Shown piece after piece: positions 17,913-32,640 of a DNA stretch of 64,000 bases. Made by a program: the position numbers and the translations under genes. The notes under the pieces are model-generated. The model ran no database searches and was not told where the DNA came from. It was given only the letters and a program-made list of their open reading frames with translations. Position 1 is the first letter of the stretch; each line of letters begins with the position of its first letter. Source of the stretch: a virus. Location: IMG/VR virus record IMGVR_UViG_3300045988_140174, positions 34,574-98,573 of that record; one strand, given 5' to 3'.

Positions 17913-18206
17913 TTCTTTTTACCGTTATCTGAATTGAAAAAAGTTTTGGTGAGAGTTTGTACCAGCCAAACAAAAAAATAAAAAGCAAAAAAAATTTTTT
18001 CCCGAAACCCACCCCCCGGTCGGTTTTTATCTGAGAAAAAATCTGAACACTATCGAGACCTTCTTGGGCTTGGCGCACGCGGAAAGGCTAGACCATCCCC
18101 AATACAGCCCCTCAACTCGCAGGACCGCGAATGGCTGTCGCGGTCCTCATTCGCAATAAATACAAACTCCACAAAAAATCTCTCGCAAATTTGTGTATTC
18201 TGCTAA

Positions 18207-18235
18207 TAGACACGCATCCTGAAACGTGGTATAAT
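18207..18235 (+). promoter_or_regulatory. promoter (TAGACA-17-TGGTATAAT)
   Basis: extended -10 and spacing; 26 nt upstream of RBS AAAGGAGG. Confidence 0.55.
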
Positions 18236-18260
18236 AGCACTATCAAAGGAGGAATAGTCT

Positions 18261-18356
18261 ATGTCTATCATCTACAAAGTCGTGCGCTTCATCACCGCGG
18301 TCGCTGTTGTCGCGGGCACTGGCATCTTGATGTGCCTCATCTGCCTCCCTCACTGA
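18261..18356 (+). CDS. 31-aa hydrophobic peptide (MSIIYKVVRFITAVAVVAGTGILMCLICLPH)
   Basis: own promoter, perfect RBS AAAGGAGG, own terminator overlapping the stop codon. Confidence 0.6.
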   Translation: MSIIYKVVRFITAVAVVAGTGILMCLICLPH

Positions 18357-18368
18357 GGGAGGTTTTTT
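18344..18368 (+). terminator. intrinsic terminator
   Basis: CCTCCCTCACTGAGGGAGG + TTTTTT. Confidence 0.75.
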
Positions 18369-18380
18369 GTTGCCCTAAGA

Positions 18381-19170
18381 TTGTTAAAAATTTAACGATG
18401 TAGCAAGATTGTTAAAAGATTAACAATGTAGTGAGATTGTTAAAAATTTAACAATCACTCAACCAAGAGAGGACAAGGACACGCACGGCACAGTGGACAA
18501 GGCAGAGCGAGCCAATGAGCGAGCGACCAACAGACAAAGAGAACAACACACAACACAACACAATGATAGATACATTGTTAATGTATTAACAATGTAGTAT
18601 AGTAGTATGGTATGGTAGTAGGTGGGGTAGGGGTGGGCTATGGGTAGTGGGTGGTGGAGGAGAGTAGACCAACAATAAGAGAATAGAACGCGCTTCCCAC
18701 CGGTCGGCTCACCAGGAACCGCGCACAACAAATCTAATGTAAGTATTCTATTTCTCTTTTGGGTTCATCATCGTTAACGGCCCTAATCGCCCAAGAATAA
18801 GCCCTCGCACAATTGCCAAACAACACAGCGGGGCAGGCGCTGAACCGCGCGCATCCCGCAACGCACAACTCTCACAGAGGAGCGAGCAAGATTGTTAAAA
18901 GTTTAACAATGTGAGAGCCAAGAGCAAGAGAGTAAAGAGTGCGCTTGCACAGGTAGCAAGGAGGATACACACGGCACAGTTGATACATTCGCTGACCGAG
19001 CAAGATTGTTAAAAAATTCACAATGTGTGGATGTGGTGAAGTCGCTGTTTAATTGTTAAAAATTTCACATTCGCTGTTGGATGCCGAACACGGTCGCAAC
19101 GCCCCAGACTTCACCACAGTAAAGTGGTAAAGAAAAAAAATTGCAAATGCGATTGTTAAAATAATCACAA
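18381..19170. repeat. array of 8 copies of the 18-bp palindrome TTGTTAAAA-N-TTTAACAA (ninth copy at 20313..20330)
   Basis: sites at about 18381, 18409, 18438, 18576, 18893, 19007, 19053 and 19154; dyad symmetry suggests binding sites for a dimeric protein. Confidence 0.7.
18459..18668. other. strand-asymmetric low-complexity region: T-depleted stretch, (CA)n-like run, C-free G-rich stretch with G-quadruplex potential
   Basis: 18459..18563 has only 2 T; 18594..18668 is composed of G/T/A; GGTGGGGTAGGGGTGGGCTATGGGTAGTGGGTGGTGG. Confidence 0.6.
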
Positions 19171-19212
19171 TCTCTGTCCCGAAAATAAATAGGTTATTTT
19201 TGAAAAAACCTC

Positions 19213-19241
19213 TTGACAAATTGCCCTATGTGTGCTACAAT
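19213..19241 (+). promoter_or_regulatory. promoter TTGACA-17-TGCTACAAT
   Basis: consensus -35, TG-extended -10. Confidence 0.6.
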
Positions 19242-19271
19242 GATTACAGTAAAACAAAGGAGGACGATACA

Positions 19272-19508
19272 ATGTCTAACATCTATGGAGTCTGCTACAC
19301 CACCAAAGAGCCTGTTGTCTACAACAGAGGGACACAGTGGGAGAAAACCTGTTCCGATTTCCTGTTCGTTCAGGCAAACAAGGACAATGGCACAGAGCTG
19401 GTGGACAAACTGAACGCTATGCTCGCCGAGGGTGTGGAAAAGTACGAACTGCTGGACATGACCAAGATTGACCATTTCTATCTTGACAAGTCCGAGGAAA
19501 TGTATTAA
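19272..19508 (+). CDS. hypothetical protein, 78 aa
   Basis: RBS AAGGAGGACGATACA-ATG; track ORF 19200 starts upstream of the promoter, so the internal Met is used. Confidence 0.6.
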   Translation: MSNIYGVCYTTKEPVVYNRGTQWEKTCSDFLFVQANKDNGTELVDKLNAMLAEGVEKYELLDMTKIDHFYLDKSEEMY

Positions 19509-19521
19509 GGAGGAACTGACA

Positions 19522-19710
19522 ATGACACGCACTATCGCTAATACCTACATCTGTATCAACAACGAGGGACAGACGCTCTCCATCATCGCCCGCACGGGCA
19601 ACGAAGCCCACAACATCGCAATAGGGTTTTTGCGGAAAGCCAACATCGTGAGCGTTCGTCGTGTATTCAAGTCCGGCAAGCTGGGCAAGGAAATTCTGAA
19701 AATTAAATAA
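19522..19710 (+). CDS. hypothetical protein, 62 aa
   Basis: RBS AAGGAGGAACTGACA-ATG. Confidence 0.6.
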   Translation: MTRTIANTYICINNEGQTLSIIARTGNEAHNIAIGFLRKANIVSVRRVFKSGKLGKEILKIK

Positions 19711-19716
19711 AATAAA

Positions 19717-19740
19717 CAGGGCGCAAGCCCTGTTTTTTTT
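19717..19740 (+). terminator. intrinsic terminator (GCAA tetraloop)
   Basis: CAGGGCGCAAGCCCTG + T8; identical hairpin repeated at 19992. Confidence 0.8.
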
Positions 19741-19750
19741 GAAAAAACTA

Positions 19751-19779
19751 TTGACAAATCCCGAAATAGGTGTTATACT
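19751..19779 (+). promoter_or_regulatory. promoter TTGACA-17-TATACT
   Basis: consensus spacing. Confidence 0.6.
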
Positions 19780-19811
19780 AAATACAGAAATTAAGAAATG
19801 AGGTAAACACC

Positions 19812-19991
19812 ATGAACACTAATTCTAATCTTTCCAACACCGCTTTCCAGTCCCTGCTCCGCACAATCCGCAACTATCGCGAAACATCTCGCCCGTTCTC
19901 CGCAATCACTACTTACAATGAGTTTTTTGACCGCATGAGCCAGGAACAGCGGGAAGAAGCGTATGAAGCACTCACCGGTAAATTGAATTAA
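19812..19991 (+). CDS. hypothetical protein, 59 aa
   Basis: RBS GAAATGAGGTAAACACC-ATG; below the ORF-track size cutoff. Confidence 0.5.
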   Translation: MNTNSNLSNTAFQSLLRTIRNYRETSRPFSAITTYNEFFDRMSQEQREEAYEALTGKLN

Positions 19992-20018
19992 CAGGGCGCA
20001 AGCCCTGTTATTTTTTTT
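19992..20018 (+). terminator. intrinsic terminator
   Basis: CAGGGCGCAAGCCCTG + T-run. Confidence 0.8.
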
Positions 20019-20038
20019 ATAAAATGCGAAAAAAACTA

Positions 20039-20067
20039 TTGACAAACACAAATAAGCGTGTTATAAT
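20039..20067 (+). promoter_or_regulatory. promoter TTGACA-17-TATAAT
   Basis: perfect consensus hexamers. Confidence 0.65.
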
Positions 20068-20099
20068 GAATACAGAAATTAAGAAATGAGGTACACAAA

Positions 20100-20288
20100 A
20101 TGAAGAACATCTATGAAATCGAGAACATCATCGACGAAATCCCCGCTGATGACTGGGCTGGCATTTGTAATTTGATGGACTACTACTATCAGTCGAATTT
20201 CTCCGCTGACGCTGAACAGAGACTGGCAAGGGCAATCGCTCCTTACGGCTTGACCGCAGAGGAAATCCTGACCTGGGACGCTGAATAA
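20100..20288 (+). CDS. hypothetical protein, 62 aa
   Basis: RBS GAAATGAGGT; same leader (AATACAGAAATTAAGAAATGAGGT) as gene 19812. Confidence 0.6.
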   Translation: MKNIYEIENIIDEIPADDWAGICNLMDYYYQSNFSADAEQRLARAIAPYGLTAEEILTWDAE

Positions 20289-20325
20289 GCGTCCTATTTT
20301 TTTGCTGTTGGATTGTTAAAATTTT

Positions 20326-20398
20326 AATGAGCATCGTCGCGCTCATCAGGCACGTGGCGCCCCGAAATATTATACCACAGCAGTCCACCAGTTGTCAA
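20326..20398 (-). promoter_or_regulatory. antisense-oriented promoter (TTGACA-18-TGGTATAAT on minus strand) firing toward a hairpin + T-run (20326..20345)
   Basis: rc of 20369..20398 gives a consensus promoter; ATGAGC-N8-GCTCAT + TAAAATTTT downstream on the minus strand. Confidence 0.5.
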
Positions 20399-20456
20399 GA
20401 GAAAAATGCGAAAATTTCGCACAAAATTTGCTATCCCGATTTGTATAGTTTGCCAA

Positions 20457-20485
20457 TAGACAAAATAAAATAAGCGTGTTATAAT
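20457..20485 (+). promoter_or_regulatory. promoter TAGACA-17-TGTTATAAT
   Basis: extended -10. Confidence 0.5.
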
Positions 20486-20518
20486 GAATACAACAAAACA
20501 ACAAAGGAGATACACAAC

Positions 20519-20827
20519 ATGATTAACATTCGTTCTATCCGCAAGCTGGGCAACAATGACGGGCTGACCCTCAAAATGGGCAAAAAGGTAAACTATAAAT
20601 CCGGCTGGCAGGTTGCCACAGAGGGCATCGAGTGCAAGACCGCACAGGAAGCCATTGACGCGGTGAGAGACTACGGCGGAAATTGTGGCGTGTGGTTCAG
20701 CGAGGGCATTTACTACATCGACAAGAGCAAGCGCGTGGCGACAAAGTGTGAAGCTATGGAAATCGGCAAAGCGTGCAATCAAATTTCCGTGCTGAAATGG
20801 GCGACTATGACGCTTGCCTACTGTTAA
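20519..20827 (+). CDS. hypothetical protein, 102 aa
   Basis: RBS AAAGGAGATACACAAC-ATG. Confidence 0.65.
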   Translation: MINIRSIRKLGNNDGLTLKMGKKVNYKSGWQVATEGIECKTAQEAIDAVRDYGGNCGVWFSEGIYYIDKSKRVATKCEAMEIGKACNQISVLKWATMTLAYC

Positions 20828-20832
20828 AATAA

Positions 20833-20858
20833 TAGGGCGAAAGCCCTATTTTTTTTTT
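20833..20858 (+). terminator. intrinsic terminator (GAAA tetraloop)
   Basis: TAGGGCGAAAGCCCTA + T10. Confidence 0.8.
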
Positions 20859-20879
20859 GAAAAAATTTTGAAAAAGGTA

Positions 20880-20908
20880 TTGACAAATCCCGAAATAGGT
20901 GCTATAAT
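20880..20908 (+). promoter_or_regulatory. promoter TTGACA-17-TATAAT
   Basis: consensus. Confidence 0.65.
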
Positions 20909-20939
20909 TAAACCATCAAATGAAGGAGGTCGCAAGACT

Positions 20940-21104
20940 ATGATGACTACTGTAAAGACTCCTGACGGCGTGCCCCCTGTTAAGCCTCTGTCCTATGTGC
21001 TGGGCGATGACTGGACGTACCTTTACAGCGATAGCTGGAAAGGCGTTGAATTCGACGTTCACGCGTGTATGAACGGCGAGGTTGTCGCAGTAGTCGAGGG
21101 TTAA
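20940..21104 (+). CDS. hypothetical protein, 54 aa
   Basis: RBS AAGGAGGTCGCAAGACT-ATG; the track ORF N-terminus would include the promoter. Confidence 0.55.
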   Translation: MMTTVKTPDGVPPVKPLSYVLGDDWTYLYSDSWKGVEFDVHACMNGEVVAVVEG

Positions 21105-21132
21105 TCCCTCGGTTATTTTTTTTATTTTTTTT
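21095..21132 (+). terminator. intrinsic terminator overlapping the stop codon
   Basis: CGAGGGTTAATCCCTCG + T-rich run. Confidence 0.6.
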
Positions 21133-21142
21133 GAAAAAACTA

Positions 21143-21171
21143 TTGACAAAATGCGCCTACGGTGCTATAAT
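21143..21171 (+). promoter_or_regulatory. promoter TTGACA-17-TATAAT
   Basis: consensus. Confidence 0.65.
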
Positions 21172-21201
21172 TAAACCATCAAAAGAGAGGAGCTAAACGC
21201 T

Positions 21202-21393
21202 ATGACAAATTTTGAACAGTATCTCGAAAACCTGATGGGTATGAAGAAAGCGGAAATCATCAACGAGGGCATCACCTGGGGCATCTGGGCGAACACCGAG
21301 GGCAACAAAGCCGAGCTGATGAAATGGAAAAAAGTGCTGCTGGCGCGTTCCCTTGCCGATAGGCTGGAAAGACTGGAAAGGCGGGGCTACTAA
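21202..21393 (+). CDS. hypothetical protein, 63 aa
   Basis: RBS AGAGAGGAGC. Confidence 0.6.
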   Translation: MTNFEQYLENLMGMKKAEIINEGITWGIWANTEGNKAELMKWKKVLLARSLADRLERLERRGY

Positions 21394-21395
21394 GA

Positions 21396-21420
21396 CAAGG
21401 GCGAAAGCCCTTGTTTTTTT
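21396..21420 (+). terminator. intrinsic terminator
   Basis: CAAGGGCGAAAGCCCTTG + T7. Confidence 0.8.
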
Positions 21421-21472
21421 ATATATGGCATTATGCCCATAATTCGGTTGAAAATTTTGGTGATTTTGCCTA

Positions 21473-21567
21473 TTGACATTCTGCCCCATTTGTGTTATAC
21501 TCGGTCGCGCGCCCACGGCCCTGATGCGCGGAAATTCCATTATACCACAGCCCAGCCAATTTGTCAA
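21473..21567. promoter_or_regulatory. composite element: plus promoter (TTGACA 21473-17-TATACT 21496), GC hairpin (21502..21531), face-to-face minus promoter (TTGACA-17-TGGTATAAT, 21539..21567 rc)
   Basis: both promoters have consensus hexamers and 17-bp spacers; they converge on a 30-nt GC stem-loop. Confidence 0.6.
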
Positions 21568-21626
21568 GCATTTTGTGTTCGGTATTTTCAACAATTTTTT
21601 GTCCCGAAATTTGTGCAATTTGACGG

Positions 21627-21655
21627 TTGACAACGCCCAGTAGGTATGCTATACT
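21627..21655 (+). promoter_or_regulatory. proximal promoter TTGACA-17-TGCTATACT
   Basis: extended -10. Confidence 0.6.
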
Positions 21656-21685
21656 TATACCATCAATTAAAGGAGGTCATTCACA

Positions 21686-21861
21686 ATGGCTACTATCGCA
21701 ATCCTCGCAATCCTCGCCCTCGCTGGCTTCGCTGGCGTTCAGTGTGTCGGCGGGGATATGGTTTATCGTCAGACGCACGACTGGCACTTCCTCGTTGGCT
21801 CTATCCTATATGGCGTTGCCTGTATCGGTCTGATGCGCTTCGTGTTCAATATGGGGTGGTA
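21686..21861 (+). CDS. small membrane protein, 58 aa, 2 transmembrane helices
   Basis: RBS AAAGGAGGTCATTCACA-ATG. Confidence 0.6.
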
Positions 21862-21863
21862 AT

Positions 21864-22187
21864 ATGGAAAACTACACTATGTCGAACCATCTGACAGAGG
21901 AGCGGGCTAACCGGCTCGCCCTCTTACAGGAATACCTCGGATATTCCGACCGCGTGATGATTGAGGTCATCGACCAACGCCAAACCGCCCGTCTGCGTTT
22001 GCTCTCGACTGGCATTATCTTGGTGCTGGACTTATATGAGAATTTCATCATCACCGCATACCCCGCAACCTTTGAACGGGCTGTCGCTATATACAAGAGT
22101 GCAGGCAAAAACCGCTTACCTCAACAGTTGGTCAAGCGCATCCGCAAGAATGAGGAACGCCACCCCGAATTTTATGTAGTAAAGTAG
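21864..22187 (+). CDS. hypothetical protein, 107 aa
   Basis: start overlaps the upstream stop (TAATATG). Confidence 0.6.
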   Translation: MENYTMSNHLTEERANRLALLQEYLGYSDRVMIEVIDQRQTARLRLLSTGIILVLDLYENFIITAYPATFERAVAIYKSAGKNRLPQQLVKRIRKNEERHPEFYVVK

Positions 22188-22193
22188 AAAATT

Positions 22194-22227
22194 GGGGCTT
22201 GACAACAAGCCCCATTTCTGCTATAAT
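22194..22227 (+). promoter_or_regulatory. promoter whose -35 (TTGACA 22199) sits in the loop of hairpin GGGGCTTG-ACAA-CAAGCCCC; -10 TATAAT 22222
   Basis: hairpin immediately 3' of the upstream gene; -10 follows after an 18-nt spacer. Confidence 0.55.
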
Positions 22228-22258
22228 GAGTATAACAAAACAAGGGAGGACGAAAAAA

Positions 22259-22588
22259 ATGTCTGATGTAATTATCGCTGGTTTGCTTATGGCTGGTCTG
22301 GTGGGTCTGCCTATTGGCTTGCTTTTTGCCATAGGGAGTGATACATGGTGGGGCAAGGTGCTGTCGTTCGTTATCTTTTGTTCCATCTTCTTCGGCTTCG
22401 GTGCTATGATAGGACAAGACCACGTCAACGATTGCAACACTTTCAACAATGGCGTGTGCGTTCAGTGTGGCGGTGAATACCGCATGAGTGGCGCAACTCG
22501 CACCCGTATGGGAAGCGAAACATTTTACTACACCTGTGAAAACTGCGGTTGGACTATTGAGACTAACGGTCTGATGAACAAACACTAA
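22259..22588 (+). CDS. membrane protein with C-terminal zinc ribbon, 109 aa
   Basis: RBS AAGGGAGGACG; two transmembrane helices, then CVQCGG...CENCG. Confidence 0.6.
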   Translation: MSDVIIAGLLMAGLVGLPIGLLFAIGSDTWWGKVLSFVIFCSIFFGFGAMIGQDHVNDCNTFNNGVCVQCGGEYRMSGATRTRMGSETFYYTCENCGWTIETNGLMNKH

Positions 22589-22601
22589 GGAGGGAAACAA
22601 A

Positions 22602-22829
22602 ATGGAAATTATTAAAGCCCCTATCTATGTCAAAATGACAGAGGAGGAACGGAAAACCCTGCGTGACGCCTATGACATTCTGAATGAATTGTATGACATT
22701 ATCCACGATAATGACTGCGAGTATGTGAGCGATACTTGCGGAAATGGCTATGACAGAGTGGACGTCGCGCTTACGGCTAATGTGCTTCAAATGCTTGCCC
22801 CCACTGAAAAAGTGGAAATCGGCAAATGA
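22602..22829 (+). CDS. hypothetical protein, 75 aa (paralog of 22845..23075)
   Basis: RBS AAGGAGGGAAACAAA-ATG. Confidence 0.6.
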   Translation: MEIIKAPIYVKMTEEERKTLRDAYDILNELYDIIHDNDCEYVSDTCGNGYDRVDVALTANVLQMLAPTEKVEIGK

Positions 22830-22844
22830 AAGGAGGTAAAACAA

Positions 22845-23075
22845 ATGAACATCATTACCTCAAATGTTCAGGTTCAACTCACCCAAGAGGAAAAGGACAA
22901 ACTTCAAGACGCCCGCGAGGTCATTTCTCACCTGTTTGATTTGATGTATGACTACGAACAAGAATACGCTATTTCCAACATCGGCGAAGAGTATTCTATG
23001 AGCCAAGTCCGTGATACCTCAAACCTGCTGGCCGCGCTTATCGGGTCTGATAAAATGCGGTTAGAAAATAAATAA
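22845..23075 (+). CDS. hypothetical protein, 76 aa (paralog of 22602..22829)
   Basis: RBS AAAGGAGGTAAAACAA-ATG; shared pattern ..T.EE...L.DA.....L..L.D.D.EY. Confidence 0.6.
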   Translation: MNIITSNVQVQLTQEEKDKLQDAREVISHLFDLMYDYEQEYAISNIGEEYSMSQVRDTSNLLAALIGSDKMRLENK

Positions 23076-23080
23076 AAAAA

Positions 23081-23105
23081 TGTGGGAGAAATCCCACATT
23101 TTTTA
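23081..23105 (+). terminator. intrinsic terminator
   Basis: TGTGGGAGAAATCCCACA + T6, abutting the next -35. Confidence 0.75.
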
Positions 23106-23134
23106 TTGACAACAACCAAGAGGTGTGGTATAAT
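23106..23134 (+). promoter_or_regulatory. promoter TTGACA-17-TGGTATAAT
   Basis: consensus. Confidence 0.65.
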
Positions 23135-23164
23135 AAATACATCAAATAAAGGAGGATACCCCGA

Positions 23165-23371
23165 ATGACTATTTTTGAAATCAGAACTGAACTGGCCGAC
23201 CGTTATTGCGTAAAGCCTGACAAGGTAAGATGTTCCAACTGTGAATATTGGGGTTATAACCGCGGTAAGGTAATGAACAGTATGGGCGAGAGTAAATGTA
23301 TGAAGCGAAAGAACGAGCGCACCTGGTGTCGTCAATTCTGCCGGGGTTTCGTTCCAAAATCGGGAAAGTAA
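23165..23371 (+). CDS. Cys-rich small protein, 68 aa
   Basis: RBS AAAGGAGGATACCCCGA-ATG; CSNCEYW...CMKRK..WCRQFC. Confidence 0.6.
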   Translation: MTIFEIRTELADRYCVKPDKVRCSNCEYWGYNRGKVMNSMGESKCMKRKNERTWCRQFCRGFVPKSGK

Positions 23372-23376
23372 ATCAT

Positions 23377-23412
23377 TTGGGCTGGATGAACAAAAATCCA
23401 GCCCAATTTTTG
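23377..23412 (+). terminator. intrinsic terminator
   Basis: TTGGGCTGGATGAACAAAAATCCAGCCCAA + T-run. Confidence 0.75.
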
Positions 23413-23425
23413 TATAATTTTCCAC

Positions 23426-23479
23426 TTGACATTTTCGGCCGCGCGCTCACGATTGTGGCGCCCGGCATTTTTGTCAATA
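23426..23479. promoter_or_regulatory. degenerate copy of the promoter/hairpin/antisense-promoter element (TTGACA 23426; hairpin about 23436..23466; inverted TTGACA 23471..23479 without a good -10)
   Basis: hairpin loop TCACGATTGTG is shared with the copy at 31537..31561. Confidence 0.45.
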
Positions 23480-23525
23480 GGCATACTTCACAAATTTTTC
23501 GCCGCAATTTTGTGCATTTTGACGA

Positions 23526-23554
23526 TTGACTTCTATCCCGTAATACGGTATAAT
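23526..23554 (+). promoter_or_regulatory. proximal promoter TTGACT-17-TATAAT
   Basis: leader GGTATAATGGCTATACTGAAACAAGGAGGTAAG is shared with the 27195 gene. Confidence 0.6.
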
Positions 23555-23583
23555 GGCTATACTGAAACAAGGAGGTAAGAACA

Positions 23584-23802
23584 ATGGAGTTGAAGAAAGC
23601 GTATCAGATGGTGTTCAGCGACCTGCGCGAATGCCCTATGTTCCAAGGGCGTTATGATGCCATCAACGGCAATCCCTATTATATGTCCGGCATTGAGACG
23701 GTTATGGAAGTCATCGCCAATCGCGCCTATAATGATGATTTCGCCGAGCGGTTCTCCAATGAATTTACCGACAATATGTTAAGGAGTAGAAAAAATGTCT
23801 GA
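23584..23802 (+). CDS. hypothetical protein, 72 aa
   Basis: RBS AAGGAGGTAAGAACA-ATG. Confidence 0.65.
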   Translation: MELKKAYQMVFSDLRECPMFQGRYDAINGNPYYMSGIETVMEVIANRAYNDDFAERFSNEFTDNMLRSRKNV

Positions 23803-24166
23803 TTTTCAGAAGCAAACCCTCAAAAGGTATGGGCACAATTTCCTCATTGTGTGCGGTTTCGGTTTGCTGGTGTATGGTATGATAAAGTCCACACTGGTGC
23901 TATACGCAACAGTTGCGATTATGGTACTAACTATCGTAGGCGCGTGTATATGGTCTATGGTAGACTCTGTTCGCTGGGACTGGCGGTTGCGCGGTAAGCT
24001 AACAGAGAGCGAGTATAAGGCATACCAGTCCTGTGAAAGAGTTTTCGGCTGGCGTGATGATAAATACCTGCCGACTGAGGAACAAATTTACGCTATGGCG
24101 ATGGAAACATCTATTGACAAAGATGTGCTATGGAGTATGTATAACAAACTGACGGAGGGGCATTAA
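23795..24166 (+). CDS. membrane protein, 123 aa
   Basis: overlaps the upstream gene by 8 nt; two transmembrane helices. Confidence 0.6.
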   Translation: MSDFQKQTLKRYGHNFLIVCGFGLLVYGMIKSTLVLYATVAIMVLTIVGACIWSMVDSVRWDWRLRGKLTESEYKAYQSCERVFGWRDDKYLPTEEQIYAMAMETSIDKDVLWSMYNKLTEGH

Positions 24167-24252
24167 CGCCCCTCTTGTTGGGTTTAGTTCTGACTAACTA
24201 CACGGAACAAAAAATTAGTCCTGTGAGAATTTAACTACAACAAAAATTTTTC

Positions 24253-24281
24253 TTGACATTTTCAATTAAATGTGTTATTAT
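24253..24281 (+). promoter_or_regulatory. promoter TTGACA-17-TATTAT
   Basis: consensus -35. Confidence 0.5.
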
Positions 24282-24312
24282 TATAATAGAAATTAAGAAA
24301 GGAATTGATACT

Positions 24313-24513
24313 ATGAACATCCCCTCTAAGCTGAAACAAGTTGCTAATGAGTTGGAGCAACTGTCAATCGAAATCGCCGCAGAAAAGAAAAACCTGTCCA
24401 ACAGTGAGGACAAGCAAGCCGCTCAAAATTTGAGCGATGATTTGTTTGAAATCCAGTCCCATTTACGTACATCTATGTACTGGGTGGCGGAAGCTATGTT
24501 TGGGGAGGAGTGA
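24313..24513 (+). CDS. hypothetical protein, 66 aa
   Basis: RBS GAAAGGAATTGATACT-ATG; this leader sequence recurs at 29013 and 30202. Confidence 0.6.
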   Translation: MNIPSKLKQVANELEQLSIEIAAEKKNLSNSEDKQAAQNLSDDLFEIQSHLRTSMYWVAEAMFGEE

Positions 24514-24989
24514 TGACTATGAATGCTATTATTCTATTCATTGTTTGCACCGCTGTGAATGTGGTGCTGTCCACCATCAAATCCATTTTGACTGTCAAAG
24601 GCAATAAATGGGTTGCCGCTGGTATCAATGCGCTGACTTATGGCTTCTATTCCTATGTCATTATCCTGACCAACATTGACGGCGTTTCTACGCTGGCAAA
24701 GATGGGCATTACCGCCGCCTGTAATTTCGTTGGTGTGCTGGCGGTCAAATGGGTTGAGGAGCTGGCGCGCAAAGAAAAACTGTGGAAGATTGAAATGACT
24801 GTTCCCACTAAATACCGAGCCGCTGTGGATTTTGACCTGCGAGACATTCCACATTCATACATTGAGATTAGCAACAAACACACGCTATTCAATTTCTATT
24901 GTGCCACGCAAGCCGAGAGCAAAAAGGTCAAGGACATTGTGGCGCAGTATGGCGCAAAATATTTCGTAGCAGAAAGCAAAAATTTATAA
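24510..24989 (+). CDS. membrane protein, 159 aa (N-terminal 3 transmembrane helices)
   Basis: RBS GGGGAGGAG; overlapping start. Confidence 0.6.
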   Translation: MMTMNAIILFIVCTAVNVVLSTIKSILTVKGNKWVAAGINALTYGFYSYVIILTNIDGVSTLAKMGITAACNFVGVLAVKWVEELARKEKLWKIEMTVPTKYRAAVDFDLRDIPHSYIEISNKHTLFNFYCATQAESKKVKDIVAQYGAKYFVAESKNL

Positions 24990-24997
24990 AATAGGGG

Positions 24998-25026
24998 TTG
25001 ACAAATCAGTCCCTCTGTGTTAGAAT
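24998..25026 (+). promoter_or_regulatory. promoter TTGACA-17-TGTTAGAAT
   Basis: extended -10. Confidence 0.55.
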
Positions 25027-25056
25027 GGTATCATCAAATAAGGGAGGACAACAAAA

Positions 25057-25206
25057 ATGGAAATGATTAAAGTTTTCAATGACCACACCGGCGAAATCCT
25101 CGAAAAGACGTTCGTAGACCCCGCAGACGCGGACGACTTCGAGTTCATTCTCGACTTCCTTGAAGCGAGATACGAACGCTACCACAACGGCGAACAAATC
25201 TATTAA
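25057..25206 (+). CDS. acidic small protein, 49 aa
   Basis: RBS AAGGGAGGACAACAAAA-ATG. Confidence 0.55.
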   Translation: MEMIKVFNDHTGEILEKTFVDPADADDFEFILDFLEARYERYHNGEQIY

Positions 25207-25219
25207 GGAGGTTGCGACA

Positions 25220-25417
25220 ATGGAGACCAAAGATGTGTACTACAACGTTGAGTGGTGGGGCATAACTACTTGGGGCGAACGCTTCACTAATAGCGAGTAG
25301 TTCAAGAACGAAAACGAAACACTGTCGTTCATCGCAAATGACCTGGCAAATGACCCGCTTGTTCGCGGAGCGACCTTCACCACACACAAAACCATCGTAT
25401 TTAAGAGAGGAGAATAA
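25220..25417 (+). CDS. hypothetical protein, 65 aa if the in-frame TAG at 25298..25300 is read through (26 aa if it is a stop)
   Basis: RBS AAGGAGGTTGCGACA-ATG; the frame stays open after the TAG and ends at TAA overlapping the next RBS. Confidence 0.4.
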
Positions 25418-25418
25418 A

Positions 25419-25625
25419 ATGATTACTATTCTGATAACGGTTATTGCCCTCGGCATTTCGTTCCTGTTTACTGCTGGGCTGGTCTGGCTTCTCTGCTGGC
25501 TTCTCCCTGCTATCGGCATCGCGTCCATCGGCTCTATCGCCATCGTGTTTTCGTGGAAACTGGCGTTGGTGATTTGGCTCATTATCGCGCTCCTGCGCTC
25601 CATCTTCGTTAGCGTTAAGAGTTAA
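25419..25625 (+). CDS. small membrane protein, 68 aa
   Basis: RBS AAGAGAGGAGAATAAA-ATG; entirely hydrophobic. Confidence 0.6.
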   Translation: MITILITVIALGISFLFTAGLVWLLCWLLPAIGIASIGSIAIVFSWKLALVIWLIIALLRSIFVSVKS

Positions 25626-25673
25626 TTGAAAAATCTCCCAAATTTGGGAAATTTTTTTTGTCTATTTTACCTA

Positions 25674-25769
25674 TTGACAAACACCCCCCATTTGTGGTAT
25701 ACTCGGCCGAGCGCCCACGGCCCTGGCGCTCGAAATTTCTATTATACACCCTGCCAGCAATTTTGTCAA
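25674..25769. promoter_or_regulatory. composite element: plus promoter (TTGACA 25674-17-TATACT 25698), hairpin (25706..25732), face-to-face minus promoter (25741..25769 rc, TTGACA-17-TATAAT)
   Basis: consensus hexamers on both strands; minus-promoter spacer identical to the copy at 28167..28195. Confidence 0.6.
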
Positions 25770-25849
25770 TAGATAAATTGAACAAATTTACCCAAGCGCG
25801 CATCCCGAAAGTTTGTGCAAAATGACCAAGAGCAAAACCGAAAAAACTG

Positions 25850-25878
25850 TTGACAAATTGCGTTTTATCCTGTATAAT
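25850..25878 (+). promoter_or_regulatory. proximal promoter TTGACA-17-TATAAT
   Basis: consensus. Confidence 0.65.
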
Positions 25879-25909
25879 AGCATTACAATCAAGAAAGGAA
25901 GTTGATACA

Positions 25910-26356
25910 ATGACTATTTATCTGGACATGGACGGCACTATCGCGGGGATTTACAACGACCCTAACTGGTTGGCAAAGCTGGAAGCCTCTGACGTGAGTG
26001 TATATGCGGACGCCTGCCCGCTTGTTCACTTCTCCACCCTCGCCCGCTATCTGAACCGCTTACAGGCGCGGGGCTACCGCATCGGCATCATTAGCTGGCT
26101 GTCCAAGAGCGGAACGGATAAGTTCAACGCCGAGGTTGCCGAGGTCAAGCGCGAATGGCTGGCAAAGCATCTCCACAGCGTTCAGTGGGACGAAATTCAT
26201 ATTGTCCCCTATGGCGTTCCCAAGTCCAACTGCGCGACCTGCCCCAACGCGATTTTGTTCGATGACGAACAGCGCAACCTCAACGAGTGGATGGCAAACA
26301 CCCATAATATGGCGTACAATGCTGACCTCCTGATGGAAATTTTGCGAAACCTGTAA
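25910..26356 (+). CDS. HAD-superfamily phosphatase, probable 5'(3')-deoxyribonucleotidase-like, 148 aa
   Basis: motif I YLDMDGTIA (DxDGT) and C-terminal ILFDDE; RBS AGAAAGGAAGTTGATACA-ATG. Confidence 0.65.
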   Translation: MTIYLDMDGTIAGIYNDPNWLAKLEASDVSVYADACPLVHFSTLARYLNRLQARGYRIGIISWLSKSGTDKFNAEVAEVKREWLAKHLHSVQWDEIHIVPYGVPKSNCATCPNAILFDDEQRNLNEWMANTHNMAYNADLLMEILRNL

Positions 26357-26362
26357 AAAAAA

Positions 26363-26404
26363 TAGCAGACAGGGGTTGACAACCTCGCCCCTGTCTGCTA
26401 TAAT
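26363..26404 (+). promoter_or_regulatory. promoter with the -35 inside a hairpin loop (AGCAGACAGGGG-TTGACAACCTCG-CCCCTGTCTGCT) then TATAAT
   Basis: 12-bp stem; TTGACA 26376; TATAAT 26399. Confidence 0.6.
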
Positions 26405-26416
26405 ATGTAATGTAAT

Positions 26417-26462
26417 TAAGGTATGGGAAACGATGGTAAGCCCAACCAAGAGAAAAGGAGAA
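26417..26462 (+). promoter_or_regulatory. conserved 5' leader motif (copy 1)
   Basis: AAGGTATGGGAAACGATGGTAAGCCCAACCAAGAGAAAAGGAGAAA; near-identical copy at 27470..27520; contains a short upstream ORF. Confidence 0.5.
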
Positions 26463-26469
26463 ATGAACA

Positions 26470-27126
26470 ATGAAAAATATCTACTGCACGCTGGACACTG
26501 AAACGGTAGGCGGCGCGGCTCACCCCACGGGAATGTATAATGTGGGTGCGATTATCCACGACCGCAAGGGCGAAATCCTCGCCACCACGTCCCTGCTGGT
26601 GATGGAGCATTATGACGAAATCGCCCTCGATGGCTACGCCAAGAAGAATTTTCCGGTATATGCCGAACGGCTCAAAACTGGCGAAATCTCCGCTATCGCC
26701 ACGGAGCGCGAAGCCTATGAGGTAGTCAAAAACCTGTGCGACCATTACGGTGTCCGCTATGTGATGGCATACAATTCCGGTTTTGACTTCTGCAAGACCT
26801 GTTTCCGCGCCCTGCTGGATAATTTCGAGTTCATCGACCTGTATCTGATGGCACTGGAAACTATCACCCACAAAAAGTCCTATGCAGAATACTGCCGAGA
26901 GCATGGCAAGCGTTCCAAGAATGGCAAGACCTGTGCAACCTCTGTCGAAGCGGTGTATGGTTATCTCCACGATAACCCCGACTTTTCCGAAGAACACACC
27001 GCCCTGTCTGACGCTATGCAGGAAATGGAAATTTTCCTTGCCTGTCAGAAGATGCACAAGCGATACACCAAGAACGTCCACGCATGGGATGCGCCCTTTG
27101 AGGTAAAATGTTTTCCCAAGTTTTGA
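26470..27126 (+). CDS. DEDDh 3'-5' exonuclease (DnaQ/RNase T-like), 218 aa
   Basis: Exo I CTLDTETVG, Exo II YVMAYNSGFDFCKT, Exo III YGYLHDNPDFSEEHTALSDAMQ. Confidence 0.75.
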   Translation: MKNIYCTLDTETVGGAAHPTGMYNVGAIIHDRKGEILATTSLLVMEHYDEIALDGYAKKNFPVYAERLKTGEISAIATEREAYEVVKNLCDHYGVRYVMAYNSGFDFCKTCFRALLDNFEFIDLYLMALETITHKKSYAEYCREHGKRSKNGKTCATSVEAVYGYLHDNPDFSEEHTALSDAMQEMEIFLACQKMHKRYTKNVHAWDAPFEVKCFPKF

Positions 27127-27130
27127 GAAT

Positions 27131-27164
27131 GGGGCTTGACAGCCCCTTTCTCATGTGGTATAAT
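27131..27164 (+). promoter_or_regulatory. promoter with the -35 in a hairpin loop (GGGGC-TTGACA-GCCCC) then TGGTATAAT
   Basis: TTGACA 27136, TATAAT 27159. Confidence 0.6.
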
Positions 27165-27194
27165 GACTATACTGAAACAAGGAGGTAAGCGCAA

Positions 27195-27407
27195 ATGCCT
27201 AAGCAGGTTCTTTTCAAGAGCGACCATTCAGATGGCGTTCAGGCAGGCATTCAGGAAGATAACGGAAATATTATCTGTGCCTGTTGCGGTGGAGTGTTTG
27301 AAGCCGAGGAAGCTACCATTCTCCATGAGTTCGACTATTGGGTTGACTTTTCGGAATGGATTGGCGACCCTGACCTGACTGAGTATCGCAAGCACGATAC
27401 CCCGTAA
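27195..27407 (+). CDS. hypothetical protein, 70 aa
   Basis: RBS CAAGGAGGTAAGCGCAA-ATG; CACCGG motif. Confidence 0.6.
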   Translation: MPKQVLFKSDHSDGVQAGIQEDNGNIICACCGGVFEAEEATILHEFDYWVDFSEWIGDPDLTEYRKHDTP

Positions 27408-27416
27408 AAAAAGTTT

Positions 27417-27455: not shown

Positions 27456-27469
27456 AACATTACAAATTC

Positions 27470-27520: not shown

Positions 27521-27522
27521 CT

Positions 27523-28053: not shown

Positions 28054-28058
28054 CAAAA

Positions 28059-28086
28059 ATGAGGGGAAAATTCCCCTCATTTTTTG
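28059..28086 (+). terminator. intrinsic terminator
   Basis: ATGAGGGGAAAATTCCCCTCAT + T6. Confidence 0.8.
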
Positions 28087-28100
28087 TATAATTTTCCCTA

Positions 28101-28195
28101 TTGACAAACGCGCCTGGGCATGGTATAATGGCCGGCCGATTTCGCGCGTCTCGGCCGGAATTCACCATTATACACCCTGCCAGCAATTTTGTCAA
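28101..28195. promoter_or_regulatory. composite element: plus promoter (TTGACA 28101-17-TATAAT 28124), hairpin GGCCGGCCGA-N11-TCGGCCGG (28130..28158), face-to-face minus promoter (28167..28195 rc)
   Basis: consensus hexamers with 17-bp spacers on both strands. Confidence 0.6.
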
Positions 28196-28253: not shown

Positions 28254-28960
28254 TTGTAATCTATACTTACCTATGCTATACTACATAATGTCAAGAGGGA
28301 GTGAGACCCCGTGGGCTGGGCTAATGGTAGGTAATGTCCCAAGTGTAAGTGAGAGCGCGCCGTACTGAAAAAAAAGACCAAAATTCCCTCTTGACAAACT
28401 CCATCAAAGGTGCTATAATGGGTGTGTCAGGAGGCGGCTCAATGATGGGTCGCTCCCATCAGGATTAAACCGAAAAAAATTTCAAAGAAATTTGAAATTC
28501 CCTCTTGACAAACCCAAGCCCCTGTGCTATAATGGATAATGTCAAGAGGGGAACGGCACGGCAGATGCGTCTAATGTGTCGCTTGTGTAGACAGGTTTCA
28601 GAAATTTGGAAAAATTTCAAAAAACCTCTTGACAATCCCCAGCACCTGTGCTATAATTGATAATGTCAAGAGGGGAACAGCCCCACCCAAGAAATCCGCG
28701 GGTCGCGAACCGTGCGAGAGTAAAGGAAGTAAGCCCTATACCAGCGCAGTAAACCCAAACGATGAACGAAAAGTGAGTGGATTGGTCAGTTCGTCCATGC
28801 GCATGGAAACGTTGAACCAACAGCAACACCTTATTCGTCAGGCGAGGTTGTAAGTCGGCTGTGAATACTTGTGGAGCGTTCCCCTGTTGACACTATCAAA
28901 AAAAATCAAGAATTTTGGAAAAAACTCTTGACAATCCCAGCGCAAGCTGTTATAATAGAT
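28254..28960 (+). other. tandem array of 5 promoter-leader modules (TTGACA-17-TATAAT then transcript starting (G/A)ATAATGTCAAGAGGG...) with tiny ORFs
   Basis: promoters at about 28254, 28391, 28505, 28629 and 28928; tiny ORFs 28288..28368 (26 aa), 28442..28468 (8 aa, with AGGAGG RBS), 28539..28574 (11 aa), 28663..28752 (29 aa); a 175-nt spacer of unknown function at 28753..28927. Confidence 0.5.
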
Positions 28961-29444: not shown

Positions 29445-29801
29445 ATGACTGACCGAGTTGCCGACCTCATGCGAAAGCTGGATTGCACCGAAGCCGAAGC
29501 CAAGGACATTATCGTTCAAGATGCTATCATCGACAAAGGCGGCAATCCGTTTCCGCTGACCGAGGAGCAGGAAAAGGCAAGCAAGAAAGCGCGGGGAGTA
29601 GGACGCCAGCCGACCGCATACAAGTTCGCGCCAAGAGAAAAAAAGGCTAATCCCACAAAGCAGACTATCATCACTCTGCTGACCGAGACACTGACCACAT
29701 ACGGCGCGACTGACCTGAACGTGAGCAACGCGGAGCGCGAATTTTTATTCACGCTTGATGGAACAAAATACAAGGTTGTGCTGTCGTGCCCGCGCAAGTG
29801 A
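29445..29801 (+). CDS. family-B protein, 118 aa (paralog at 30683..31081)
   Basis: RBS TGAAAGGAGTATCGC-ATG; shared PTAYKF..RE.KANPTK motif. Confidence 0.7.
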   Translation: MTDRVADLMRKLDCTEAEAKDIIVQDAIIDKGGNPFPLTEEQEKASKKARGVGRQPTAYKFAPREKKANPTKQTIITLLTETLTTYGATDLNVSNAEREFLFTLDGTKYKVVLSCPRK

Positions 29802-29827
29802 GGGAGAGAAATCTCCCTCATTTTTTT
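29799..29827 (+). terminator. intrinsic terminator overlapping the stop
   Basis: TGAGGGAGAGAAATCTCCCTCA + T7. Confidence 0.8.
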
Positions 29828-29841: not shown

Positions 29842-29936
29842 TTGACAAACGCGCTCAAATGTGTTAAAATGGGTCGGGCGCTCACGGCTGTGGCGCCCGA
29901 AATTTCCATTATACCACGTGGCACAAATTTTGTCAA
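29842..29936. promoter_or_regulatory. composite element: plus promoter (TTGACA 29842-17-TAAAAT 29865), hairpin CGGGCGC-TCACGGCTGTG-GCGCCCG (29875..29899), face-to-face minus promoter (29908..29936 rc, TTGACA-17-TGGTATAAT)
   Basis: same architecture as 21473, 25674 and 28101. Confidence 0.6.
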
Positions 29937-30104
29937 GTGTTTTTTTGCACAAATTTTGGATGTTGAAAATCCCATTTTTTGTGAGTATTGACTATTGCAA
30001 TCTGCCCAAGGGTGTGGTAATATATAATTGTTCCAAGGGAGAGGGTAAGACCTCCCGGCGGGGCGTGTACCTCGAAAAAAATTCCACAAATCCGAAAAAA
30101 AGTC

Positions 30105-31503: not shown

Positions 31504-31561
31504 TTGACAACGCCCTCTGACTGTGGTATAATGGGTCGGGCGCTCACGATTGTGGCGCCCG
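31504..31561. promoter_or_regulatory. promoter (TTGACA 31504-17-TATAAT 31527) + hairpin CGGGCGC-TCACGATTGTG-GCGCCCG (31537..31561) + inverted TTGACA remnant
   Basis: degenerate copy of the composite element. Confidence 0.5.
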
Positions 31562-31622
31562 GCATTTTTGTCAATACACATTTTCAACAATTTTTCCGGC
31601 GAAAGTTTGTATAAATTGACTA

Positions 31623-32552: not shown

Positions 32553-32640
32553 TTGACAACGTGGGCCCGGTGTGGTATAATAAAAGGGGAGGGTACAACG
32601 GGCCGAGCGCGGGCGCTGCGGTCCGAAATTCCGATCTGTA
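32553..32640. promoter_or_regulatory. promoter (TTGACA 32553-17-TATAAT 32576) + GC-rich hairpin region; the antisense promoter is absent in this copy
   Basis: GGGCCGAGCGCGGGCGCTGCGGTCCGAAATTCC resembles the hairpin + GAAATTYC of the other copies. Confidence 0.45.

What the first reader, a model, noticed from the sequence alone, without database searches (positions are those of the whole stretch)
21473..21567. Recurrent face-to-face promoter pairs separated by a covarying GC hairpin (7-8 copies)
The layout is a plus-strand consensus promoter, then a 25-30 nt GC stem-loop whose stem sequence differs between copies but keeps pairing (CGGGCGC/GCGCCCG, CGAGCGCC/GGCGCTCG, GGCCGGCCGA/TCGGCCGG) with a loop of consensus yCACGRyyNTG, then a consensus promoter on the opposite strand aimed back at the hairpin. 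One or two further plus-strand promoters and the RBS of a gene follow. Full copies lie at 21473..21567, 25674..25769, 28101..28195 and 29842..29936. A minus-promoter-only copy lies at 20326..20398, and degenerate copies lie at 23426..23479, 31504..31561 and 32553..32640. Compensatory stem changes indicate selection for structure. Convergent firing would produce short complementary RNAs and transcriptional interference over the leader of each downstream gene. I do not recognise this as a described regulatory module.
Basis: seen in the sequence. Interest (0 to 1): 0.85.

Follow-up and report, generated by a model that had tools for sequence, protein, structure and literature searches.

The report
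Antisense promoter–hairpin cassettes in phage early region
A large uncultured phage carries, between its early genes, repeated cassettes in which a perfect promoter pointing against the genes starts its transcript with a GC hairpin (often facing a second perfect promoter). The same unit recurs in many related phages, so it looks like an undescribed variant of known promoter/terminator boundary cassettes.

Summary
The window is a large Firmicutes-type siphophage. The modules sit in a 16-kb, promoter-dense early block, each just after a terminator. Related phages show that the conserved core is not the face-to-face pair. It is a consensus promoter pointing against the genes (P-) whose transcript begins with a 25-27-nt GC stem-loop: 116 unique hairpins, 101 different stems, and 101 of 108 scorable units are anti-oriented. 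The plus-strand partner (P1+) is an add-on found in about a third of units. Its spacing is strict, 36-39 nt between the -10 hexamers, so the two polymerase footprints must overlap. P- also forms a fixed divergent pair with the slightly weaker promoter (P2+) that serves the next gene. In a third variant P- is lost and the hairpin is followed by a U-run, making it a terminator. Cassette indels between relatives break inside the modules. Most likely this is a boundary device: it stops rightward polymerases ahead of P2+ and makes a 5'-protected antisense RNA. It also serves as a recombination joint. The mechanism is inferred, not shown. It is a new variant of known kinds.

The parts
20274..20296 (+). 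Terminator of the preceding early gene, upstream of the minus-promoter-only copy
20334..20366 (.). Degenerate GC hairpin of the first copy (no plus promoter)
   Evidence: z -0.36
20369..20398 (-). P-: TTGACA-18-TATAAT with TG, 12/12, pointing against the genes
20457..20485 (+). P2+ of this copy (TAGACA-17-TATAAT), serving gene 20519-20827
21392..21417 (+). Terminator upstream of module A
21473..21501 (+). P1+ of module A (TTGACA-17-TATACT, TG)
21505..21531 (.). Hairpin A. Imperfect in this genome; perfect CGCGCGCC/GGCGCGCG in relatives L002/L005, compensated CGCGCGTC/GATGCGCG in L010
21539..21567 (-). P- of module A, 12/12 with TG
21627..21655 (+). P2+ of module A, preceded by AAATTTGTGCA (21610-21617); serves gene 21686-21862
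23426..23477 (.). Reduced copy: TTGACA, hairpin 23438-23466, TTGTCAA; both -10 hexamers are missing
25674..25703 (+). P1+ of module B
25708..25732 (.). Hairpin B: CGAGCGCC / loop cacggccct / GGCGCTCG
25741..25769 (-). P- of module B, 12/12
28055..28084 (+). Symmetrical (bidirectional-looking) terminator upstream of module C
28101..28129 (+). P1+ of module C, 12/12
28132..28158 (.). Hairpin C: CCGGCCGA / loop tttcgcgcgtc / TCGGCCGG
28167..28195 (-). P- of module C, 12/12; upstream element TTTGTGCA at 28205-28212 on the minus strand
28254..28282 (+). P2+ of module C (TTGTAA-17-TATACT)
29796..29823 (+). Terminator upstream of module D
29842..29870 (+). P1+ of module D (TTGACA-17-TAAAAT)
29874..29900 (.). 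Hairpin D: TCGGGCGC / loop tcacggctgtg / GCGCCCGA, -20.6 kcal/mol
29908..29936 (-). P- of module D, 12/12 with TG
29993..30021 (+). P2+ of module D (TTGCAA-17-TAATAT)
31504..31574 (+). Variant with P1+ (31504-31532), hairpin 31535-31563 and then ATTTTTGTCAA. The minus -10 is deleted, so the hairpin plus U-run reads as an intrinsic terminator
32553..32640 (+). Decayed copy: P1+ 32553-32581, hairpin 32599-32625, AAATTCC, degenerate minus -10

Best explanation
The element is a composite boundary cassette of the early (host-takeover-like) gene block of a clade of large Firmicutes-type siphophages. Its conserved core lies immediately after the terminator of one early transcription unit. It is a perfect sigma-A/sigma-70-type promoter pointing against the genes (P-), whose transcript would begin, within about 0-2 nt, with a 25-27-nt GC stem-loop. 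On its other side, a fixed ~59 nt away, lies a divergent and slightly sub-consensus promoter (P2+) that serves the next gene. In this window's sub-clade a second perfect promoter (P1+) sits across the hairpin, with 37 +/- 1 nt between the -10 hexamers, so only one polymerase can occupy the pair at a time. Proposed working (inferred): polymerase bound at or firing from P- blocks or collides with polymerases that leak through the upstream terminator or start at P1+, so the next gene depends on its own promoter P2+. The leftward RNA is antisense to the 3' end of the upstream unit, and its 5' end is protected by the hairpin. The conserved cassettes are also the joints at which gene cassettes are swapped between phages.
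For: Shown: the pattern is far beyond chance. Hairpin-carrying promoters with a 7-8-nt initial region are anti-oriented to local genes in 101 cases and co-oriented in 7, whereas promoters without a hairpin are co-oriented in 776 cases and anti-oriented in 48 (Fisher p <1e-50). There are 116 unique hairpins with 101 different 5' arms in about 55 loci, all ending 32-35 nt after the -10. Covariation is confirmed. Hexamers are conserved while spacers vary. All 8 window copies follow a terminator; family-wide the hairpin starts 7-24 nt after the terminator stem where P1+ is absent and 48-56 nt after it where P1+ is present. Upstream terminators are mostly unidirectional: 27% show a terminator-like signal in the P- direction against 63% in the gene direction. 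The -10 to -10 gap is 36-39 nt. P- and P2+ sit at a fixed distance. Where P- is deleted, the hairpin acquires a U-run and becomes a terminator, a second way to stop rightward transcription at the same place. Indel breakpoints lie inside modules. From the literature: a unidirectional terminator followed by an antisense promoter represses the upstream gene through collisions and antisense RNA (PMC4731013); 5'-terminal stem-loops stabilise RNA (review PMC3997798).
Against: No transcript data exist, so no start site, RNA length or promoter occupancy is known. If stopping rightward polymerases were the only aim, a GC-rich segment or a second terminator would do; the hairpin's complementarity is explained only by the added 5'-protection idea. 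Why a perfect P1+ should be maintained only to be blocked is not explained. Wobble-pair counts show no strand bias, so the functional RNA strand is unresolved. The loop motif CGTG occurs in 32/116 loops against 8/116 for its complement, which hints at a specific ligand that this model does not use. Gene orientation was called with a crude ORF+RBS rule, and the loci were retrieved with a consensus-promoter pattern, so the sample is biased.
Confidence: 0.42

Rival explanations
1. The products are the point. The module is a tiny transcription unit making short hairpin RNAs from one or both strands. These could be complementary RNAs that form double-stranded RNA, or decoys for a host or phage RNA-binding factor.
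For: The hairpin sits at the very start of both transcripts. In the variant lacking the minus -10, the hairpin is followed by a U-run, which would give an RNA of about 30-35 nt. In pairs, the A/T-rich -10 of the opposite promoter supplies a U-rich stretch after the hairpin (4-5 T in 8 nt in 25 of 37). The loop motif is orientation-specific.
Against: In the commonest class (no P1+) the hairpin is followed by an A-run, and only 27% have any terminator-like signal in the P- direction. Stems and loop lengths vary widely, which argues against a specific protein ligand. No Rfam family matches.
Confidence: 0.17
2. It is mainly a recombination joint, like the PeSL cassettes of T4-type phages. The repeated promoter/hairpin sequence provides homology for cassette shuffling, and the palindrome is kept perfect by templated repair rather than by selection on RNA.
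For: Cassette insertions and deletions between the window and L007-L012 break inside modules: W 29823-29899/30001 and W 21455-21680 each align to two modules in relatives. The P1+ and P- halves occur in different combinations. Whole stems are replaced between otherwise identical flanks, as in module B of the window against L001/L012.
Against: This does not explain the strict anti-orientation, the fixed distances to the -10 and to P2+, or the conservation of hexamers in both promoters. Recombination at conserved regulatory sequence can be a by-product of regulation.
Confidence: 0.15
3. It is a mutually exclusive two-way switch, as the first reader proposed in spirit. P1+ and P- compete for polymerase, and the outcome (sense read-in or antisense) is set by a regulator bound at the TTTGTGCA elements or by initiating-nucleotide levels.
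For: Footprints overlap. The upstream element TTGTGCA ends 9 nt before the -35 in 24-25% of hairpin promoters against 3.7% of others. The predicted start nucleotide is G for P1+ (64/72) and A/U for P- (110/122).
Against: Two thirds of units have no P1+. In the variant lacking the minus -10, P1+ is followed by a terminator, so P1+ read-in to the next gene does not seem to be the purpose. Start sites are predicted, not mapped.
Confidence: 0.12
4. It is replication-related: P- makes a primer or an R-loop at a GC-rich segment, as at transcription-activated phage origins.
For: In the cultured relative Enterococcus phage VRE9_2, the only antisense promoter with a GC hairpin lies in an 800-nt non-coding, iteron-rich region.
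Against: There are 5-9 copies per genome spread between genes, with no iterons at the window's modules. Iteron-like repeats lie elsewhere, at 34927-35542.
Confidence: 0.05
5. It is a mimic of a CRISPR repeat (RNA anti-CRISPR), or an operator for a dimeric DNA-binding protein.
For: A promoter followed by a repeat-sized GC hairpin.
Against: There are 101 different stem sequences among 116 hairpins. A mimic or an operator would need a conserved sequence, and there is no conserved handle.
Confidence: 0.03

Closest known systems
PeSL (promoter-early stem-loop) cassettes of T4-type phages (PMC2839356, PMC4122927)
   Same: Both are repeated small cassettes that combine a near-perfect sigma-70 early promoter with a stem-loop, lie between small genes of unknown function in a plastic early region, and sit at the breakpoints of cassette swaps between close relatives.
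   Different: In PeSLs the stem-loop is the terminator and the promoter is co-oriented with the genes. Here a separate terminator precedes the module, the GC hairpin has no U-run in most copies, and the defining promoter points against the genes, often facing a second promoter. The phage is not T4-like.
Face-to-face promoter pairs of temperate phages (186 pR/pL, P2 Pe/Pc) and the transcriptional-interference framework (competition, sitting duck, occlusion, collision; cited in PMC4731013)
   Same: Two convergent promoters close enough to interfere.
   Different: Those are single-copy lysis/lysogeny switches in which each promoter drives genes, and the starts are further apart (from memory, about 62 bp in 186). 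Here there are 5-9 copies per genome, starts about 23-25 bp apart, a hairpin between them, and no gene served by P-.
[quoted passage not shown]
   Same: Same order of parts after a gene: terminator, then a strong promoter firing back towards the gene. The terminators are mostly unidirectional.
   Different: That part is engineered and shown to repress the upstream gene. The phage version adds a 5' hairpin, a fixed divergent partner promoter and often a facing promoter, and its effect is untested.
5'-terminal stem-loop RNA stabilisers (ompA, papA, aprE leaders; review PMC3997798)
   Same: A stable, sequence-independent stem-loop flush with the predicted 5' end of the RNA.
   Different: Known examples protect mRNAs. 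Here the protected RNA would be a non-coding antisense transcript, and protection is only inferred.

Membership tests
PeSL cassettes (T4-type phages) | Near-consensus sigma-70 early promoter combined with a stem-loop in a small repeated cassette | tested here: met
   23 perfect 12/12 promoters and 51 terminator-like sites in 19 kb; repeat families D1-D10
PeSL cassettes (T4-type phages) | The stem-loop of the cassette is the transcription terminator of the upstream gene | tested here: not met
   The GC hairpin lacks a U-run in the classes with and without P1+, and a separate terminator lies 7-56 nt upstream. It is met only in the variant lacking the minus -10
PeSL cassettes (T4-type phages) | Indel or replacement breakpoints between close relatives coincide with the cassettes | tested here: met
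PeSL cassettes (T4-type phages) | Host genome is a T4-like myovirus | tested here: not met
   The virion protein is closest (about 39% identity) to 140-kb Enterococcus phages EF1/VRE9 and to Lactococcus/Bacillus siphophages
Face-to-face promoter switches (186, P2) | Two convergent promoters whose transcripts overlap | tested here: met
   At sequence level only:
Face-to-face promoter switches (186, P2) | Each promoter drives an alternative gene set; single copy at an immunity region | tested here: not met
   All genes in the block are on the plus strand, and there are 5-9 copies per genome
Face-to-face promoter switches (186, P2) | Measured interference between the promoters | not testable with these tools
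   Needs reporter or in vitro transcription assays
Terminator + antisense promoter control | A strong antisense promoter placed just downstream of a gene's terminator | tested here: met
   8 of 8 window copies; family-wide distances; orientation
Terminator + antisense promoter control | The terminator is weak in the antisense direction | tested here: met
   Terminator-like signal in the P- direction in 35/131 units against 83/131 in the gene direction; consensus scan only
Terminator + antisense promoter control | Represses the upstream gene | not testable with these tools
   Needs expression measurements
5'-terminal stem-loop stabilisers | The stem begins within a few nt of the RNA 5' end | tested here: inconclusive
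   The stem starts 7-8 nt after the -10 for P- and 2-4 nt after it for P1+, so the predicted +1 is at or inside the stem; start sites are not mapped
Intrinsic terminators | GC stem-loop directly followed by a U-run | tested here: not met
   Tails are GAAATTYCC on the plus strand and CCAAAA/CCATTATA on the minus strand. Exception: copies lacking the minus -10, such as 31535-31570
RNA anti-CRISPR / solitary CRISPR repeat | Sequence matches one CRISPR repeat, with a conserved stem and handle | tested here: not met
   101 distinct 5' arms among 116 hairpins; no array search was done
Any Rfam family | Match at the gathering score | tested here: not met
   0 matches at gathering score; only chance-level hits at E<=1, none on the hairpins

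The most novel reading that the evidence does not exclude
The face-to-face pair is a mutually exclusive, nucleotide-sensing toggle repeated along the early region. P1+ is predicted to start with G inside a GC-rich discriminator, and P- with A/U. In a Firmicute host, whose GTP and ATP pools move in opposite directions on starvation, the pair would then route polymerase either forward or backward according to host physiology. Alternatively, the two 5' hairpin RNAs, complementary to each other, are themselves functional products, for instance double-stranded RNA or decoys against RNA-sensing defence.
Probability: 0.1. Interest if true: 0.85.

Novelty: new variant of a known kind. Interest (0 to 1): 0.62.

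Why it matters
Early regions of large lytic phages are dense arrays of strong promoters and terminators, and how neighbouring units are kept independent is little studied outside T4, T7 and lambda. This work finds a recurrent, geometrically strict cassette: terminator, optional forward promoter, covarying GC hairpin, backward perfect promoter, then a fixed divergent promoter. It occurs in dozens of uncultured phage genomes. It looks like a natural counterpart of an engineered part (terminator plus antisense promoter), and it gives a concrete system for testing promoter competition at about 25-bp start-site spacing. It could also supply compact insulator parts for Gram-positive synthetic biology. 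Because cassette swaps break at the modules, it extends the PeSL idea of regulatory cassettes as recombination joints beyond T4-type phages.

Tried and rejected
- **Nucleotide similarity to deposited phages:** no megablast match for 20000-33000 or 1-12000. A distant-mode search with module D found only a 30-nt match.
- **Known RNA genes:** no tRNA or tmRNA, and no Rfam family.
- **Deciding the functional RNA strand from wobble pairs:** in the P- orientation there were 9 G.U against 14 A.C, so no bias and no conclusion.
- **Discrete terminated small RNA from P-:** only 27% of units have a terminator-like signal in that direction, so this is rejected as the general case.
- **CRISPR-repeat mimic or DNA operator:** rejected because the stems are almost all different.
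- **Cultured model phage:** Enterococcus phage VRE9_2 shares early proteins at about 31% identity. It has only one loose analogue (antisense promoter plus a 6-bp GC hairpin, short initial region) inside an iteron-rich non-coding stretch.
- **Bacterial genomes:** the scan found the unit once, in a 176-kb contig binned with an Acutalibacteraceae MAG, probably a phage contig. A second hit, in an Anaerolineales MAG, could not be read.
- **Protein families of the block's genes:** only HD-domain, nucleotidase-like and T5orf172 hints, and no candidate hairpin-binding protein.

Full report
**1. What the window is**

The window is phage DNA.
- ORF 1050-2126 (minus strand) matches a virion structural protein family. 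Its closest relatives, at about 39% identity, are in 134-142-kb Enterococcus phages (EF1, VRE9, H1), with weaker matches in Lactococcus and Bacillus siphophages.
- There is no nucleotide-level match in the deposited phage collection, no tRNA and no Rfam family.
- The finding lies in a block at about 18-34 kb with 44-50% G+C. The flanks have about 30%.
- All convincing genes in the block are small and on the plus strand. The few family hits are an HD domain, a 5'-deoxyribonucleotidase-like protein and T5orf172, which are typical of early or host-takeover regions.
- The block holds 35 of the window's 42 promoters that match the sigma-70 consensus at 11 or 12 of 12 positions. Of these, 23 are perfect, mostly with the extended TG. 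It also has 51 terminator-like sites where 19 are expected.
- In general layout the block resembles the promoter-early stem-loop (PeSL) arrays of T4-type phages (PMC4122927).

**2.

It matches nothing in 100 shuffles.
- The five strong minus-strand promoters in the block are precisely the module promoters.
- Copy A is imperfect in this genome and folds no better than shuffled sequence. B, C and D are clearly structured.
- The partial copies are as described.
- Every one of the eight copies follows a terminator.

**3. Relatives change the picture**

- A 29-mer of the minus promoter, and then one early protein, retrieved six close and ten more distant relatives from IMG/VR.
- The close relatives carry 5-7 orthologous modules each.
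- In the distant ones (early protein at 61-67% identity) the plus promoter is usually absent. What persists is a GC hairpin, the motif GAAATTYCC and a perfect promoter on the minus strand, directly after the T-run of the upstream terminator.
- A scan for consensus promoters of this type brought in 119 more loci from many metagenomes. Of 133 promoter matches, 56 are followed within 20 nt by a perfect GC hairpin.

**4. Family-wide statistics (window plus 139 loci)**

- There are 1293 distinct strong promoters, and 234 have a GC hairpin just downstream.
- The distance from the -10 to the stem is bimodal: 7-8 nt (initial sequence GGAAATT or GGTGAATT) or 2-4 nt.
- The 7-8-nt class points against the local genes in 101 of 108 scorable cases. 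The 2-4-nt class points with them in 58 of 62. Promoters without a hairpin point with the genes in 776 of 824 (Fisher p below 1e-50).
- The 116 unique hairpins of the anti-oriented class have 101 different 5' arms. They nevertheless end at a nearly constant 32-35 nt after the -10.
- On 28 fixed-geometry examples, 86.6% of cells pair against 65.7% in shuffles, and 39 cells carry double changes against 14.3. No shuffle reaches these values, and sliding the partner by one column collapses pairing to 30-38%.
- RNAalifold finds the same helix.
- Caveat: these examples were chosen for being hairpins. The unbiased evidence is the orientation association, and the fall to 12.5% hairpin calls after shuffling.

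**5. Three architectures**

- *No plus promoter:* 77 unique units. The hairpin starts 7-24 nt after the terminator stem.
- *Face-to-face pair:* 39 unique units, including the window's four full copies. The plus promoter is inserted between terminator and hairpin.
- *Minus -10 deleted:* a smaller variant in which the hairpin runs straight into ATTTTTGTCAA. Window copy 31504 is one. This gives a GC hairpin followed by a U-run, which is an ordinary intrinsic terminator, and the junction is conserved even in distant relatives with different stems.

**6. Geometry**

- In convergent pairs the gap between the two -10 hexamers is 36-39 nt in 51 of 63 distinct pairs, with a mode of 37.
- With starts about 7 nt after each -10, the two start sites are about 23-25 bp apart. 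An open complex protects to about +20 (established knowledge), so both promoters cannot be occupied at once. This is promoter competition in the usual classification (PMC4731013).
- To the right, the minus promoter forms a fixed divergent pair with the next plus promoter, P2+. The median is 59 nt between the -35 hexamers (interquartile range 58-68).
- P2+ is slightly sub-consensus: TTGACT, TTGTAA, TAGACA or TTGCAA at the -35, and TATACT at the -10 in 41 of 126.
- Hairpin-associated promoters share an upstream element, TTTGTGCA, ending 9 nt before the -35. It occurs in 24-25% of them against 3.7% of other promoters.

**7. Selection and evolution**

- In the seven close genomes the four hexamers vary in 1 of 72 alignment columns. 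The promoter spacers vary in 25 of 102.
- Stems change by compensated substitutions. In module A, CGCGCGCC/GGCGCGCG becomes CGCGCGTC/GATGCGCG.
- Stems also change by wholesale replacement between identical flanks. In module B, CGAGCGCC becomes CGGCCGCG.
- Pairwise alignments show that cassette insertions and deletions break inside modules. Window 29823-30001 aligns to two modules of L007 that flank an extra 1.3-kb cassette, and 21455-21680 behaves likewise. The modules are therefore recombination joints, as proposed for PeSLs.

**8. How it most likely works (inferred)**

- The hairpin is tied to the promoters rather than to the terminator: its distance to the -10 is fixed, while its distance to the terminator varies.
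- It is selected for complementarity but not for sequence, and it lies at the predicted 5' end of both transcripts. This fits an RNA 5'-terminal stem-loop, a known and sequence-independent protection against 5'-end-dependent decay (PMC3997798).
- The core order, a mostly unidirectional terminator followed by a strong backward promoter, matches an engineered part. That part represses the upstream gene through polymerase collisions and antisense RNA (PMC4731013). In only 27% of units is there a terminator-like signal in the backward direction.
- The variant lacking the minus -10 replaces the backward promoter by a terminator at the same position. This suggests a common task: stopping rightward polymerases before the weaker promoter P2+.
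- I therefore favour a boundary or insulator role, combined with a protected antisense RNA, at about 0.4 confidence.
- Unexplained points remain: why a perfect forward promoter is kept only to be blocked; what the orientation-specific loop motif does (CGTG in 32 of 116 loops against 8 for its complement); and which strand's RNA matters, since wobble pairs show no bias.

**9. Rivals**

- *Short hairpin RNAs as the functional products:* this fits the variant lacking the minus -10 and partly fits the pairs, but not the majority class without a plus promoter.
- *A pure recombination element:* this does not explain the orientation and distance rules.
- *A regulated two-way switch:* the predicted start nucleotides, G for the forward promoter and A/U for the backward one, make this testable.
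- *A replication role:* suggested only by the context in Enterococcus phage VRE9_2.
- *CRISPR-repeat mimicry or a DNA operator:* excluded by stem diversity.

**10. Novelty**

- Literature searches found PeSLs, face-to-face promoter switches and synthetic antisense-promoter parts. They found no description of this cassette.
- Each ingredient is known. What appears to be new is the combination, its strict geometry and its spread across a phage clade.
- I rate it a new variant of a known kind, of moderate to high interest.

Noticed in passing
window 18000-34000: The early block has 44-50% G+C while the flanking phage DNA has about 30%. The equivalent block of the cultured relative VRE9_2 is 26-30%, the same as the rest of that genome. 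The cause of this composition jump is unknown.
   Followed up: partly
window 18376-19175 and 20308-20335: Eight or nine copies of an 18-20-bp palindrome, ATTGTTAAAANTTTAACAAT, sit at the left edge of the early block. Three are in tandem at 28-bp spacing, and one lies just downstream (in the P- direction) of the first module. They look like operators for an early-region regulator.
   Followed up: no
window 34927-35542: Iteron-like array in 28% G+C DNA right after the early block. The short palindrome ACAACCAAAATGGTTGT and its half-sites repeat with an 80-bp period, including two identical 80-bp units. It is a candidate origin or injection-stop-like region.
   Followed up: no
window 28245-28990: Five successive promoters (28254, 28391, 28505, 28629, 28928), most followed by the conserved leader ATAATGTCAAGAGGGGAAC and about 100 nt with no convincing ORF, only 7-8-codon reading frames. 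These may be small RNAs or micro-peptides. The same leader follows P2+ in relatives L014 and L015.
   Followed up: partly
window 22193-22214 and 27131-27146: Two terminator hairpins carry the -35 hexamer of the next promoter in their loop or stem (GGGGCTTGACAACAAGCCCC; GGGGC-TTGACA-GCCCC). The T-run doubles as the promoter spacer, giving an extremely compact PeSL-like terminator/promoter overlap.
   Followed up: no
window-wide; loci L007-L139: There are two classes of upstream element. Ordinary early promoters are preceded by GAAAAAAC(T/C), and hairpin-associated promoters by TTTGTGCA(A/T)TTT ending 9 nt before the -35.
   Followed up: partly
L141 3819-3900 (JAZNWP010000048.1): A canonical backward-promoter/hairpin unit with the TTTGTGCA element lies in a 176-kb contig binned with an Acutalibacteraceae MAG. 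This is probably a phage genome and is only a weak hint to the host group.
   Followed up: partly
window about 16000: The cumulative GC skew has its minimum near 16 kb, where gene orientation flips from minus (structural genes) to plus (early block).
   Followed up: no
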